From Octopus vulgaris (Eukaryota), in assembly GCA_951406725.2 (NCBI GenBank), contig OX597830.1, positions 62,806,001 to 62,870,000 of the forward strand: a stretch of 64,000 nucleotides of DNA, written 5' to 3'. This document shows positions 10,819-54,175 of the stretch, one piece after another. Every line of letters starts with the position of its first letter. The stretch's first letter is position 1. The notes beneath the pieces are model-generated. The model saw only the letters and a program-made list of their open reading frames with translations, was not told where the DNA came from and made no database searches. Made by a program: the position numbers and the translations under genes.

Positions 10819-10905
10819 GCGGTACATATGTTTCTGGCTTTATTAGACAGTTTATATCAATGCATAATTGATGTAATATGTATGTCAAAAGCCTTCTTCA
10901 GCCGC
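10819..10905 (-). ncRNA. Type I hammerhead ribozyme motif with long stem II
   Basis: Minus strand: GCGG-CUGAAGA-A-GGCUUU...AAAGCC-A-GAAA-CAUAUG-UA-CCGC; stem I GCGG/CCGC, palindromic stem III, GUA triplet. Confidence 0.8.
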
Positions 10906-11117
10906 GTACAATTACCACACCAAAGACATGTATTAAATTATAGCAGGTTTGAGAAGTTTGGGAAAAATACGGGTTTCGTTGGGGATGCAAATCCTCATAG
11001 TTGTATACAGCAGAGCGAGAAACCAAAACAAAAACAAAGCATCCATACCGTTTTTCACTCAATGTAGAATATATATATATATATATATATATATATATAT
11101 ATATATATATATATATA

Positions 11118-12411
11118 CGAGGGACGTTCAATAAGTAATGCCTCTGACCCACTTGCAGTTGTTTGATCTAGCTGAAACTTTGTATGTGCAATCATTTATA
11201 TCTCTATAGAGTAAGTGGCAAATTACAGCACTGAATTAATTGTGGTTTCTGATTTACAGGTGTTTGAACCGAGTCAAGTGTTAAATGGAGCCTGTTGAGT
11301 GTCGAGCAGTGATCCGGTTTTTGTATTTGAAAGGACGCACACCACGGGAGACTTTTGATGAAATGAAAGTAACTTATGGTGATGATGCCCCATCATATGA
11401 CCTTGTAAAACGCTGGCATCGTGAATTCAAACATGGTCGGAACTCTGTGGAAACAGCTCCCAGATCTGGTCGCCCCCTTCTGCCATTGATGAGGCATCTG
11501 TCCGTCAAGTTGAGGCTGCCATTTTGGAAGATCGACGCATAACTATTCGCCAAATAGCCCATGAGGTCAAGATTAGTACCGGGTCTGTGGAAACTATCAT
11601 TCATGACCATTTGCATATGCAAAAGGTATCTGCCAGATGGATTCCCAGGTTGCTCACGCCTTTCCAGAAGCAAGAACGCGTCGAGTGCTCGAGGATGAAT
11701 TTGGAGATGTGCCAAGAAGATGAGTCAAAATTTTTCAAAAGACTGATTACACAGGATGAAACCTGGGTCCATCAATCATGATGATCCAGAGACCAAAGCC
11801 CAGTCAATGCAGTGGAAGCACCGTGACTCAGCCCCTCCAAAGAAGGCAAGGATGCAGCCCTCCGCTGGCAAGGTCATGCTCACAGTCTTCTGGGACCAGG
11901 ACGGAGTAGTGATAACAGATTTCCTGGCAAAGGGTACCACAATTGCAGGAGCCTATTATGCTTCACTTTTGAGGAAATTAAGAGAAGTTATCAAAATCAA
12001 GAGGTGGGGCAAGATCAGCAAAGGCATCCTCCTCCTGCAGGACAACGCTCCGGTCCACAACTCGCTTGTCGCCAGATCAGAAGCACAGGCGTATGGCTAT
12101 GAACTCCTCCCCCATCCCCCTACTTTCCTGACCTTGCACCCTCTGATTTTCACCTCTTCCCAGTCATGAAGTTGTTTTTGAAAGGAAAGCGTTTCCCAGA
12201 TGATGCAGCCTTGATTTCTGAAGTTGCGTTCAGGTTGGAGTACCAAGCTGGGGTCTTCTATAAAAACGGTCTCCAGAGCTGCATCAAACAATGGGAGAAA
12301 TGCGTAACTCTGGGTGGTTCCTATGTAGAAAAAGACTAATACTGTGCCAAATTTCGTTGCTCTACTGCTATGGGAAGTGGGTCAGGGGCATTACTTATTG
12401 AACGCCCCTCG
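11118..12411 (+). mobile_element. Full-length mariner DNA transposon (1294 bp, irritans-like)
   Basis: TIRs cgagggacgttcaataagtaatgcctctgacccactt / aagtgggtcaggggcattacttattgaacgcccctcg, TA on both sides within (TA)n. Confidence 0.95.
11285..12338 (+). pseudogene. Frameshifted mariner (DD34D-type) transposase
   Basis: RAVIRFL...RSGRP, WIPRLL, ITQDETWVH, LLQDNAPVH and a frameshifted YxPDLAPSDFHLF motif spread over several frames. Confidence 0.9.
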
Positions 12412-12729
12412 TATATATATATATATATATATATATATATATATATATATATGTATATATATGTATATATATATCTATGTATGTGTGTGTATATGTTTGT
12501 GTGTCTGTGTTTGATGTAAATAGGATTAATCATGCAAAATACTTATGTATGTATGTATGTATCTATATAACAAGCTTCTTTCAGTTACCAAAACCACTTA
12601 CAAGGCTTTGGTTGGCCTAAGACTATAATAGAAGACACTTGCCCAAGGTGCCATGCAGTGGGACTGAACTCAGAACCATGTGGTTGGAAAGAGCTATTGG
12701 AGCTAATCTAATCAATTAGTTTCACACAA

Positions 12730-13026
12730 GGTATTAAAACCAGATGTTAGATAACAGTACAGATAAATAACACTGTATGCTCTTTAGAAATGGCAGGAAT
12801 CCTGAAGTATTCTTGCTATCTCTGAAGAGCATGCAGTATTACTTAATTGTGCTGTTATCAATCGGTTTTGTTCTGGGAGTTAAAACCAAATGTTAGATAA
12901 CAGCACATTTAAATAATATTGAGCAGTCTTCAGAGATAGCAGGAATCCTGCAATATTCCTGCCATCTCTGAAGAGCATGCAATATTAATTATCCATGCTG
13001 TTATCTAACATATGGTTTCTATACCC
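12730..13026. repeat. Tandem pair of ~135-bp palindromic (hairpin) units
   Basis: Each unit reads aaaacc..tgttagataacag...gcaggaat-loop-attc.tgc...ctgttatc...ggttt; units at 12736-12869 and 12882-13018. Confidence 0.8.
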
Positions 13027-50913: not shown

Positions 50914-50976
50914 CGAGTCACACAACCCGGACACAGAGAGTCACACAACCCGGACACAGAGAGTCACACAACCCGG
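50914..50976. repeat. 23-bp tandem repeat, about 3 copies
   Basis: gagtcacacaacccggacacaga. Confidence 0.85.
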
Positions 50977-53409
50977 CTACCCACGCACAGCTGCGCTCGC
51001 CCTCACAAGTTACTCAACAACCTTACTAGTGTTGGTGGCACAAATAAAATAAAGTACCCAATATACTTCAATAAGTGATGGGTTTTGAGAATGGCATCTA
51101 ACCATAGAAACCATGCCAAAGCTGATACTGGAGCTTGGTGTGGCCTTGTAAGCTCAGCAAATCTTGTCAAACTGTCCAACCCATGCCAGCATGGAAAGTG
51201 GATGATAAATGATGATGTTAATGATAATAATGATAATAATAATCTGCAGCTTATACCATTTGTTTTCCTATACACTTTTTGCTGTTGAGGCTATTGGCAT
51301 CCTCTGCAGAGAGTGTTTATTGCATTTGGATGGAGATCCACAACTGTGTCCTTCGGTGAAAACTTTATTACATTATGTTGGATAGTTATTATAAAAGTTG
51401 GTAATTCTAGTAAGTACAGAAGTAACCACATTATGAGCTGTATACTTGATGAAAACACTCTAAATTCCTCAGTAATAGTCATACATCTAACTTGTGTCAA
51501 AGTCTGAGAGTAATATATTCCTGATAATTATTACCGATTCACTGCTCTGATGCGAAGTCAAGCTGGGCCTGAACACGGAACACAAAATTATGCAGTGGAT
51601 AAATTCAACACAGAGTAAACCAGATCACCTACCTATTGCATTTGTTATGTCTAATGTTGCCAGAAAACTGAAATGGTTAAGTAATTGCAGCATAGAAGAG
51701 CTATTTAAGTGATTTAGTAAACAGAAATAAGCTGTTAAAATATCACTTCTTGTTTATTTAGTAGCGATGTCAACGTTCTTTTTGTCCCAAAGTAATCAGT
51801 GAAGCCGTGTCAATGAGCCGGATATAACTGTGGGACTAAAACTTTCGATACCTTGAGGAATAAACGAAATGGGAAGTCAACATTTTTGTGTGTGTTTGGA
51901 ATTTCTAAACTGTGTGTTTCATTCTGTAATTGTTTCAACACACGGATTTCAGATTATGTCACTTACCAGACAAGTGAGTACACCTTAAAAATAGAATGGT
52001 TAAGTTTAGAAGAATAACAAAGAGCTGGAAAAAAACCCATACAGGAATGTTGATTTAATTTTGTATTTATTTTTCGAATAAGTTACGTCACAGCCGGGAT
52101 GTTTGGTTCGGCAGCTGATCGTTGTTGTTGCTCTAATTTCCAGCGCTTGTTTACAATAGAGACATGAAGGTTTTGTTTATAAAACGTATTTAGATATATT
52201 TTTTCAGAAGTTCCTGTTATTGTATTCTGGTCACATTAACATACTGACTTTCTAGGGTATAGTCACACTTGGGCAATCTTTGAATTTAGGACACCAATTT
52301 GAATTCTGTCAACCAACAGTGATGACGAAGGCGAAAACGACATGCTGTGCTTTGTTTCTTAAGAGTGAAAGAAAAGGAACTGGAGAGGGATTTGAATATA
52401 GAATGTAAAAAAGTGTAACAAACTAGCACAAAGTATTTTAATTTGAGGCTCCACTGATTCTGCCAACCACGACCTACTATATGTATTAATCGTTATAATA
52501 CACTATAATACACATCATAGTCATGTGTATATTGCATTCTGGCCATGTTAGGACACTGACTTTCATGAATTTAACCAATCCTTGTGGATGGTCATTGAGC
52601 GTAGGACATCACTGCTTTCATCAATAAATTATCAGAGAAGTGAACGTGATGTTCTAGACGCAAAGACCGCCCAGTATTGTCAACAAAATTTGTAGTATTG
52701 AAATACAAATTCGTAAAAGAGTGTAACAAGCAGGAACAAGGTATTTTAGTTTGATGCACCACCACCACTACCAGCCACCACCACCACCACCATCGCCACC
52801 CACCTGTTAATCGTCATATAATAAACATCATAGCCAAGTGTTTAAATGTCAAGTTGTGTGGAGTGTTTAGAGATGAATTACATAGCATACTAAATATACC
52901 AACAATTACTGTAACTTCTGCTGTCAGTGAACGAAAGATAAACCCCGCCTTTAATGACATCCCAATAGAAACCACAGGGACAGCATGTTTATGCATCCCA
53001 TCTGTTTGTTTGGAATATTGCATTACATTGAGGAAGTTGTTCTCTACAACAAACACCTCTACGCATCAAACATTAGCCAAAAGCTAATGAAGTTTATTAC
53101 ATAACATTTGGGTTTTTTTTCACTGTCATCGCTTTGTTTTCTGTTACCACTCGATACTCATATAACATTGTATTGTGGACCATACGTATATCGAGTTCTA
53201 CACCAGGTGTTTAGTCTCGCTATATATAGCGAAATAATAAATCATGTGTGTGTGTGTGTGTGTGTACGTTACAGGATTCTTTAGAATCTAGGCATATCAA
53301 TAAATAGGATGCCAGGACTGGCTATGTACCATAACATCTAGTTCACAGTGCAGTAAAGACAACCACGGTGTGACATGTGTTGGTAGTGTACAGCAGTATA
53401 TATATATAT

Positions 53410-53912
53410 ATATATATAAAACTCTAGTTGTGTGAGTGTCTGTCCCCTTCGATTTAGATTCCTAACTCCTCCCACATTTTGCGGTGCAGTTTAACCAAAT
53501 TCGGGTATCTTATAGTCGTGATTCATATCGAGCCCGTCTGCCTATTAGCGCGCGTCAACGATGAGTCTACGATTTTAAAAATAATTTAACATCATTTTTT
53601 ATTCCATTTTAATGCATAAAATGCATCATATGTCGATGGCGGTGGAGTTGGCGTCCACGCTCACAGCTGCACCTGTTTGCTTCTCCCCCTTCCCTCCCTC
53701 GTGAAGCTGTGGGGAAGGGAGTGTAAAGAAATCAACGTCGTAATGCGTTGTGAAGGAAACCAGCGTTCTTTTAGAACAACGACTTCATGGCTTGAAGACA
53801 CCAAAACAAAAATGGCTAAGAAAGCCCGAATTTATAAGGGAAGTAACTCTCTAAAAATGCTTATATAGTTATTTCCCTTACAAACCCGAGCAACGCCGGG
53901 CGATATTGCTAG
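53410..53912 (+). mobile_element. Non-autonomous Helitron-like element (copy 2)
   Basis: 3' hairpin plus CTAG; matches 25383-25891. Confidence 0.8.
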
Positions 53913-54113
53913 TATATATATATATATATATATATATATATATATATATATAAACAATATATAAACAACTTATAAACAAGAGCAAAAGAAAAAAATTCAA
54001 TGCCAAATATGCTGAAATAGACTTAATTGTCAATAACCATAAGTCTGCTCATGACTTAGTGTTTACTTCTTCCATGGGTACAAGAAAGTATCTCATTTAT
54101 TCTCTTATTGTAG

Positions 54114-54175
54114 TTATCGCTGATGACGAGAAAATTCTAAATGAATTAACTCAGAAATTGGAACCGATCGGATAA
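54114..54175 (+). ncRNA. Type I hammerhead ribozyme motif between 41-bp inverted repeats
   Basis: UUAUCG-CUGAUGA-C-GAG-AA-AAUUC-UAAAU-GAAUU-AA-CUC-A-GAAA-UUGG-AA-CCGA-UC-GGAUAA; G-G mismatch at the base of stem I. Confidence 0.7.

What the first reader, a model, noticed from the sequence alone, without database searches (positions are those of the whole stretch)
10819..54175. Dispersed set of dimer-type hammerhead ribozymes in short non-coding elements
Seen: five loci with unrelated flanking sequence (10819-, 19994+, 48869-, 50207-, 54114+) all read stem I-CUGANGA-stem II-GAAA-stem III-UH-stem I'. The paired stems have different sequences at each locus. Stem III is a palindrome or has a 1-2 nt loop (ACAUAUGU, ACAUGCAUGU, ACUCAGAGU, AUUGCAAU, AUUGGAACCGAU), so it should fold better as a dimer. 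Known: small dimer-cleaving hammerheads are characteristic of Penelope-like element pseudo-LTRs and non-LTR retrozymes. Inference: several distinct non-autonomous ribozyme-bearing retroelement families occur here at about one per 13 kb, with no RT or GIY-YIG ORF in the window. I do not know whether these families are already catalogued.
Basis: partly seen in the sequence, partly recalled or inferred. Interest (0 to 1): 0.8.

Follow-up and report, generated by a model that had tools for sequence, protein, structure and literature searches.

The report
Penelope-linked hammerhead ribozymes in scattered repeats
Five scattered DNA stretches have the layout of hammerhead self-cutting RNAs that are predicted to work in pairs; they are likely remnants of Penelope-type jumping genes and of a small, very abundant repeat that probably depends on them, a known kind of element here seen in families I could not find described.

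Summary
All five motifs are real: one descriptor, tuned on them, finds exactly these 5 loci against 0.023 per shuffle. Their design matches published hammerheads of Hydra-clade Penelope-like elements (PLEs): type I, an extra base on each side of stem II, and a palindromic stem III.

Locus c (48765-48998) is a TA-flanked PLE 3' end with a back-to-back inverted copy. Its motif recurs in 120 metagenome loci; 11 have PLE coding sequence 110-615 nt upstream and 15 show the same inversion.

Locus b belongs to a non-coding family of at least 290 bp, of order 10^3-10^4 copies, in three sampled organisms. No variant was listed in its core. A diverged relative at 6800-7550 forms a 358-bp tandem plus an inverted copy. 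This fits a PLE-dependent retrozyme.

Loci a, d and e are unassigned, and several copies look decayed. No PLE coding remnant was found in the window. Cleavage, dimer action and expression are untested.

Verdict: new members of a known kind.

The parts
10819..10905 (-). Hammerhead a: 4-bp stem I, long stem II (60-nt spacer with A/A at its base), palindromic stem III, predicted cut after 10823
   Evidence: its lowest-energy two-strand fold is the double hammerhead
10803..11066 (-). Fragment carrying a; starts at a (TA)n run 168 nt upstream of the core and is cut off about 20 nt after the ribozyme by the end of a SINE-like repeat
19994..20039 (+). Hammerhead b: 6-bp stem I, C/A at the base of stem II, 10-nt palindromic stem III, predicted cut after 20033
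   Evidence: 0 of 22 core and stem III sites among the variant rows shown
19915..20204 (+). Copy of the high-copy non-coding b family: a long rod (about 19952-20081) extends stem I with the ribozyme at its tip, followed by several hairpins
   Evidence: depth profile and loose ends; folding z = -4.19
6800..7421 (-). Locus f: two head-to-tail units related to b (period 358 bp, 85% alike; the upstream unit is 5'-truncated), each with a decayed core (G8 to A) at 7010 and 7369
7414..7542 (+). Inverted 5'-truncated third copy abutting the 5' end of locus f
   Evidence: 87% identity to unit 1
48869..48906 (-). Hammerhead c: stem I CUGU/ACAG, 2-bp stem II with a GCAA loop and A/A at its base, stem III ACUCAGAGU, predicted cut after 48873
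   Evidence: same stem I and nearly the same stem III as Hydra-2_aMil, same stem III as Penelope-3_HM
48923..48960 (+). Inverted copy of hammerhead c with U16.1 changed to C (48955), likely inactive
48765..48998 (-). Likely 3' end of a Hydra-clade PLE between TA runs: 84-bp-arm palindrome (3 mismatches) plus a tail on the direct copy only
50207..50270 (-). Hammerhead d: bulged stem I, partly decayed stem II, palindromic stem III, predicted cut after 50213
49990..50377 (-). About 390-bp stretch carrying d, between microsatellite runs; family not tested
54114..54175 (+). Hammerhead e: G.G mismatch at the first pair of stem I, C/A at the base of stem II, stem III with a 2-nt loop, predicted cut after 54169
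53998..54287 (+). 290-bp stretch carrying e, bounded by 41-bp inverted repeats (53998-54038 and 54247-54287, 93% alike)

Best explanation
The five loci carry type I hammerhead motifs that are likely pseudo-LTR (3'-end) ribozymes of Penelope-like retroelements and of a non-coding retrozyme probably mobilised by them, and each is predicted to cut its RNA efficiently only when two copies pair through the palindromic stem III. Shown: the motifs and their excess over chance; that c's motif sits at the 3' end of full and truncated PLE ORFs elsewhere with the same back-to-back inversion; that b is a high-copy family with conserved core, tandem junctions and inverted junctions. Inferred: a PLE reverse transcriptase and GIY-YIG endonuclease, encoded outside this window, copied element RNA from its 3' end into AT-rich or (TA)n sites, leaving short 5'-truncated ends that keep the ribozyme. 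In tandem transcripts two ribozymes would fold as a double hammerhead and release unit-length RNA (about 350 nt for b/f) that may circularise. Most solo copies here are probably inactive relics.
For: Descriptor 5 vs 0.023 in shuffles. Active double-hammerhead fold is 9.2-16.7 kcal/mol more stable than two active monomers at all 5 loci. Published Hydra-PLE hammerheads share the design and prefer (TA)n; Penelope-13_HM has an inverted truncated copy with an antisense ribozyme. All 5 cores have a TA run 50-168 nt upstream, against 0.11 for a random position within 170 nt. c-type motif: 135 hits in 120 metagenome loci; PLE coding sequence ends 110-615 nt upstream in 11 loci and a full ORF starts just downstream in 2; 15 of 120 loci are back-to-back pairs, with the tail on exactly one copy in 10 of 15 and on both in none, as in c. 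b family: depth 76,345 at the core vs 63 on the single-copy flank in run X1, also present in X5 and X8; 0 of 22 core and stem III sites vs 26 of 94 flanking sites vary among the rows shown (Fisher p = 0.003); of 13 joints listed, 10 are inversions and 1 is a tandem junction. Locus f gives tandem plus inversion inside the window, with b, f1, f2 and f3 ending at the same aligned column.
Against: No cleavage or RNA-end data. No autonomous partner was found in this genome (none was held). The c-type search pattern was taken from c, so the motif match is partly circular, and a covariance model of the independent tail hairpin did not hit c at E up to 10. The active dimer is close to the lowest-energy dimer only for a (3 kcal/mol); for b-e it lies 7-10 kcal/mol above it. 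a, b, d, e and f1 have no real match in the 120 loci (one 23-nt hit for d). Only 40 of 73 variant rows were shown, each listed joint rests on one contig per run, and some inversion joints could be artefacts of the rod. In the preprint only 1 of 9 predicted retrozyme dimers cleaved in vitro.
Confidence: 0.8

Rival explanations
1. All loci, b and f included, are just 5'-truncated 3' UTR ends of autonomous PLEs; there is no separate non-autonomous family.
For: PLE ORFs end 110-190 nt upstream of the ribozyme in 10 of the 11 related loci, and the window copies keep only about 15-170 nt upstream, so the ORF would usually be lost. Partial tandems and inverted copies are typical of autonomous PLEs. 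Depth rises about tenfold towards the 3' half of b.
Against: In f a 358-bp ORF-less unit follows the previous unit's 3' end directly. A loose end upstream of 19915 in X15 resembles, by eye, the junction part of f. Loose ends at 20082-20084 show diverged family sequence upstream rather than truncation. The rod keeps pairing at 17 of 20 listed transitions (chance 0.64, p = 0.035; three transversions that break pairs and the stem II row were left out of that count).
Confidence: 0.3
2. All five loci are distinct non-autonomous ribozyme retroelements.
For: The loci share no sequence outside the core, no ORF lies nearby, and b fits.
Against: c has the motif, inversion and one-sided tail of ordinary truncated Hydra-PLE ends. 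Pfam also misses a full Hydra ORF, so the Pfam blank is weak. a, d and e were not tested for family structure.
Confidence: 0.15
3. Locus b is a tRNA-headed SINE with a hammerhead, like Schistosoma Sm-alpha, or e is a regular part of a Helentron-type DNA element.
For: A tRNA-like box lies at about 19852-19890, matching 60873-60911. e sits at the start of a stretch that looks like a Helentron non-autonomous element (recalled).
Against: Depth drops to 632 at 19880-19903 between the tRNA-like box (2,707) and the b family (17,655), so they behave as separate repeats. f has no such head. ARAGORN finds no tRNA. The e reading was not tested.
Confidence: 0.07
4. The motifs are chance matches in AT-rich repeats.
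For: A very loose descriptor also returns two poor extra sites, 60004+ and 43690-, and the final descriptor was tuned on the five.
Against: Untuned descriptor 3 vs 0.043; tuned 5 vs 0.023; core conserved in the b family; c motif at PLE ends.
Confidence: 0.02

Closest known systems
Hydra-clade Penelope-like elements (Craig et al. 2021, PMC8557442), e.g. Hydra-2_aMil, Penelope-3_HM, Penelope-13_HM, Hydra-1_Obim
   Same: Type I hammerhead near the 3' end, extra bases flanking stem II, 3-4 bp palindromic stem III with a 1-3 nt loop, (TA)n targets, inverted truncated copy with an antisense ribozyme.
   Different: None of five short motifs from the window occurs in that paper's supplement, and Hydra-1_Obim's ribozyme is a different sequence. 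A/A at the base of stem II and 27-60 nt stem II spacers are not among its Hydra rows. No ORF here.
Non-LTR retrozymes of animals (Cervera and de la Pena 2020, PMC7229834; Li et al. 2026 preprint 10.64898/2026.07.22.740005)
   Same: Non-coding 150-450 bp unit below 50% GC (b is 45%), type I hammerhead, tandem and solo copies, self-paired RNA; mussel units are 350-390 bp; proposed to derive from PLE pseudo-LTRs.
   Different: b has a PLE-type core with C/A at stem II, a 10-nt palindromic stem III and a long rod, and shows back-to-back inverted copies. The tandem seen here has dead cores. Circular RNA is untested. No cephalopod is mentioned in the parts of these papers that I read.
Minimal PLE hammerheads (Cervera and de la Pena 2014, PMC4209133)
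   Same: Extra base after A9, palindromic stem III, mostly solo copies from truncated PLEs, opposite-strand pairs.
   Different: Most lack stem III entirely and have no extra base before GAAA. Of 56 aligned motifs one core is printed AGAAA, and the Hydra row appears to carry an extra U.
Naiad PLEs with 'HHR_half_core' (Naiad_Ovul, Naiad_Esco; PMC8557442)
   Same: (TA)n targets and long spacers between the two core halves, as in a, d and e.
   Different: The published 3' ends that I saw do not resemble a, d or e by eye, and those here close into complete hammerheads.

Membership tests
Type I hammerhead ribozyme | CUGANGA and GAAA core, A15.1-U16.1 pair, NUH site, three stems | tested here: met
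   5 of 5 loci; d and e have weakened stems; the inverted copy of c and both f cores fail
Type I hammerhead ribozyme | Core conserved more than flanks across family copies | tested here: met
   b only: 0 of 22 vs 26 of 94 sites, from 40 of 73 rows shown; a, c, d, e not tested in this genome
Type I hammerhead ribozyme | Self-cleavage at NUH | not testable with these tools
   needs in vitro transcription; only contigs were available
Dimer (double) hammerhead | Stem III unstable within one strand, stable between two | tested here: met
   folding prediction only
Hydra-clade PLE | Ribozyme design and 3'-terminal position | tested here: met
   c matches published rows and motif-bearing loci with PLE ORFs upstream; pattern derived from c
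Hydra-clade PLE | Inverted 5'-truncated copy at the 5' end, tail on one copy only | tested here: met
   c; 10 of 15 related pairs; f shows the inversion
Hydra-clade PLE | (TA)n insertion preference | tested here: met
   TA run upstream in 5 of 5, downstream within 300 nt only for c and d; some Hydra 3' UTRs carry an internal TA run
Hydra-clade PLE | Linked RT plus C-terminal GIY-YIG ORF with DKT and CxCX5C motifs | tested here: inconclusive
   absent from the window, as expected for truncated ends; present by eye in L093 beside the c-type motif; genome not held
Hydra-clade PLE | 3' tail hairpin seen in related loci (my own observation, not a published criterion) | tested here: inconclusive
   aligned by position in c, but model R1 gave no hit at c
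Non-LTR retrozyme | Non-coding 150-450 bp unit, GC below 50%, type I hammerhead | tested here: met
   b at least 290 bp, 45% GC; f unit 358 bp
Non-LTR retrozyme | Tandem copies with intact ribozymes in consecutive units | tested here: inconclusive
   f is tandem but both cores carry G8 to A; one X5 contig joins 20205 back to 19995
Non-LTR retrozyme | Expressed as linear and circular monomer RNA | not testable with these tools
   no raw RNA reads listed
tRNA-derived SINE with hammerhead (Sm-alpha type) | Pol III head linked to the ribozyme in most copies | tested here: not met
   depth gap between the tRNA-like box and b; absent in f

The most novel reading that the evidence does not exclude
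The b/f family is an uncatalogued cephalopod retrozyme of about 350 nt, with thousands to tens of thousands of copies, whose dimer hammerhead caps a conserved rod of about 60 bp and whose insertions carry the PLE back-to-back inversion. That would be structural evidence that PLE enzymes mobilise an invertebrate retrozyme. With several PLE families added, such genomes could hold a hammerhead about every 10 kb, denser than the published counts I read.
Probability: 0.35. Interest if true: 0.6.

Novelty: new member of a known kind. Interest (0 to 1): 0.36.

Why it matters
The class is known, so the value is in coverage and mechanism. The 2026 preprint argues from Xenopus that animal retrozymes derive from PLE pseudo-LTRs and names invertebrates as untested. 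A high-copy invertebrate family with PLE-style inverted and tandem insertions would test that directly. The loci also show why standard searches miss such motifs: no Rfam hammerhead row appeared, and Pfam misses even a full Hydra ORF. If b-family circles accumulate as in mussel and coral, they would be an abundant unannotated RNA in these animals.

Tried and rejected
Whole genome: none held, so no genome-wide scan or family consensus was possible.

Rfam: microsatellite-driven matches only in the rows shown.

Pfam on 193 of 298 higher-complexity reading frames found mariner and zf-RVT remnants but no RT core or GIY-YIG. This is weak, because Pfam gave 0 families for two full PLE ORFs.

The idea that the extra base before GAAA is new was rejected: U/U, U/C and C/A at that place are in Craig's File S2.

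The b-family pattern found 0 stretches in metagenome contigs. A general pattern gave 36 viral loci; none had the palindromic stem III on inspection, so they were treated as chance.

The tail-hairpin model did not support c. A candidate at 40901- has a broken core and was dropped.

No RNA holder was listed. Run X15, only guessed to be RNA, has contigs over b; this is not counted as expression.

A protein search with the 22872-23345 fragment returned named hits only from marine invertebrates and did not identify the host group.

Lunse et al. 2017 was not available; it may describe these core variants. Four look-ups of earlier scan findings returned nothing.
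Full report
Observation. The five loci exist as described. I label them a (core 10901-), b (20000+), c (48902-), d (50263-) and e (54120+). A first descriptor found a, b and c, against 0.043 loci per dinucleotide shuffle; 0 of 300 shuffles reached 3. After relaxing it to allow one mismatch or bulge in stem I, it passed exactly these 5 of the 33 CUGANGA sites. Shuffles gave a mean of 0.023 and a maximum of 1 in 1000, and the reversed sequence gave 0. 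That second test is tuned on the loci. Outside the core the loci are unrelated. Rfam listed no hammerhead among the 150 of 214 rows shown.

Anatomy. Each motif has an extra base on both sides of stem II: A/A in a and c, C/A in b and e, G/U in d. Stem III strands form no hairpin alone but pair with themselves between two strands. The active double-hammerhead fold is 9.2-16.7 kcal/mol more stable than two active monomers at all five loci. It is near the overall minimum only for a (3 kcal/mol); for b-e it is 7-10 kcal/mol above the best dimer fold. d has a decayed stem II and e a G.G mismatch next to the core. All five cores have a TA run of at least 5 units 50-168 nt upstream, against 0.11 for a random position within 170 nt; the threshold was set after seeing the data. 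Only c and d have one within 300 nt downstream.

Host and context. The window is repeat-rich animal DNA with mariner remnants, a non-LTR retrotransposon remnant at 22872-23920 and an interstitial TTAGGG array. I take it to be octopus-like from SINE families that I recall; no call confirmed this (one search was uninformative). No whole genome was held. tblastn with a full PLE ORF found nothing in the window (best E 2.1).

Locus c. It lies between TA runs and forms a palindrome with 84-bp arms and 3 mismatches; the second ribozyme has U16.1 changed to C. File S2 of Craig et al. lists Hydra-clade PLE hammerheads with the same design: Penelope-3_HM has the same stem III, Hydra-2_aMil the same stem I, nearly all Hydra families target (TA)n, and Penelope-13_HM carries an inverted truncated copy with an antisense ribozyme. 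They hold 135 hits, and 15 of the 120 loci are back-to-back pairs. L093 has a 722-aa ORF ending 184 nt upstream. By eye it carries the DKT and CxCX5C motifs given for Hydra; Pfam gives it no family. With it as query, 11 loci have PLE coding sequence ending 110-615 nt upstream of the motif, and 2 have a full ORF starting just downstream. In the pairs the 5' ends lie 3-38 nt apart (16 in c); a tail hairpin sits on exactly one copy in 10 of 15, on both in none and on neither in 5. c has a similar hairpin 39 nt after the motif on the direct copy only. Against this, a covariance model of that tail gave no hit at c up to E = 10, so the tail match rests on position and eye alone.

Locus b. Contigs of four runs were laid on 19760-20460 at 80% likeness. 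In X1, depth is 63 beyond 20216, 16,000-50,000 over 19904-19999, 76,345 at the core and up to 639,000 in the 3' half. X5 and X8, two other organisms, show the same shape. The tool warns that depth is not a copy number; the ratios, about 1,200 and 10,000, are orders of magnitude only. Among the 40 of 73 variant rows shown, none falls in the 22 core and stem III sites, against 26 of 94 flanking sites (p = 0.003). The two rows inside the ribozyme are the extra base at 20007 and position 20011, where most copies differ from the window and have a 3-bp stem II with a larger loop. The rod extending stem I folds at z = -2.82 and the whole unit at z = -4.19. Of 24 variants at paired sites 19 keep pairing, counting partner variants; 17 of 20 transitions do so with the window partner alone, against 0.64 by chance (p = 0.035). 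Of 13 joints, 10 are inversions, 2 are skips and 1 goes from the 3' end back to 19995. Each rests on one contig per run, and some inversions may be artefacts of the rod.

Locus f. At 6800-7550 a diverged relative of b (72% over the best 74 nt) forms two head-to-tail units with a period of 358 bp and 85% identity, plus an inverted truncated copy abutting the 5' end. Both cores carry G8 to A but keep a paired stem I of different sequence from b. b and all three f copies end at the same aligned column. This is the PLE insertion pattern on an ORF-less unit of retrozyme size. It does not exclude that b/f is the 3' UTR of a longer PLE.

Loci a, d and e. These share the core design and the upstream TA run, but I had no way to test their families, and they have no real match in the 120 loci. 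e lies inside 41-bp inverted repeats, which could be a PLE-type inversion or part of a neighbouring DNA element.

Mechanism. Shown: the motifs, the conservation in b, the PLE context of the c motif, and tandem and inverted layouts. Inferred: target-primed copying by PLE enzymes from elsewhere in the genome, 5' truncation, and dimer-dependent cleavage of tandem transcripts, possibly giving circles. Published work urges caution on activity: PLE hammerheads cleave poorly in vitro, one needed its element's protein and its cleavage was dispensable for insertion in vitro, and 1 of 9 predicted retrozyme dimers cleaved.

What is known. PLE hammerheads, Hydra PLEs in octopus and animal retrozymes are all in print. 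O. vulgaris has 31 recently active Penelope-like families. Reported counts are over 6,000 in a coral, about 5,000 in mussel, 9,000 in Xenopus tropicalis and up to 120,000 in the 28-Gb axolotl genome. One per 13 kb would be denser, but this is a single window picked for being rich. I found no description of the b/f family or of cephalopod retrozymes in searches; repeat databases could not be searched.

Papers seen. PMC4209133: main text parts 1-2 of 4, supplement parts 1-2 of 3. PMC8557442: passages, section 11, supplement parts 2 and 53 and term searches. PMC7229834: passages and sections 13, 14, 17. PMC6765202, PMC11167929, PMC8967140: passages. 10.64898/2026.07.22.740005: parts 1-3 of 5, supplements not seen. 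PMC13282606: part 1 of 3 and a term search, supplements not examined; its repeat library may already hold these families. Lunse 2017: not held, known only through the review.

Verdict. A real and well-spotted feature, explained by known biology. New members of a known kind, interest 0.36; the b/f family is the part worth following.

Noticed in passing
window 7414-7421 and joint 19941/20085: The inversion junction of f maps within about 10 nt of the base of the rod that encloses the ribozyme, as does 1 of 10 inversion joints in the b family; fold-back priming at the rod could produce this.
   Followed up: partly
window 20150-20204: The 3' end of the b family folds into a multi-hairpin junction (z = -2.66 for 20060-20200) and lies in the most abundant half of the family; it may be the site recognised by the reverse transcriptase.
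   Followed up: partly
window 25392-25891 and 53418-53913: Two copies of a roughly 500-bp element between TA runs, ending in a GC-rich hairpin and CTAG/CTAC, like a Helitron 3' end (recalled); the second lies just upstream of locus e.
   Followed up: no
window 53960-55420: The stretch holding e continues into sequence resembling a non-autonomous Helentron (recalled); whether the ribozyme is part of it is open.
   Followed up: no
window 22872-23920 (-): 3' remnant of a non-LTR retrotransposon (zf-RVT, endonuclease-like C-terminus) flanked by (TAA)n, likely Dong/R4 type (label recalled); relatives in marine invertebrates.
   Followed up: partly
window 11120-12410, 47834-48764, 49026-49900: Tc1/mariner remnants with terminal inverted repeats inserted in TA runs; two of them flank locus c.
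   Followed up: no
window 36502-36598: Interstitial telomere-type (TTAGGG)n array, about 16 units.
   Followed up: no
L051, L084, L093: Apparently full-length Hydra-type PLE ORFs of about 700-720 aa in metagenome contigs that Pfam does not recognise (L084 and L093 scanned).
   Followed up: partly
PMC8557442 supplement, 3' ends of Naiad_Obim and Naiad_Ovul: GAAA precedes CUGAUGA by about 30 nt, which could be a circularly permuted hammerhead rather than a 'half core'; not folded or tested.
   Followed up: no
window 40840-40910 (-): A further hammerhead-like site with a broken core and a palindromic stem III; possibly another decayed copy.
   Followed up: partly
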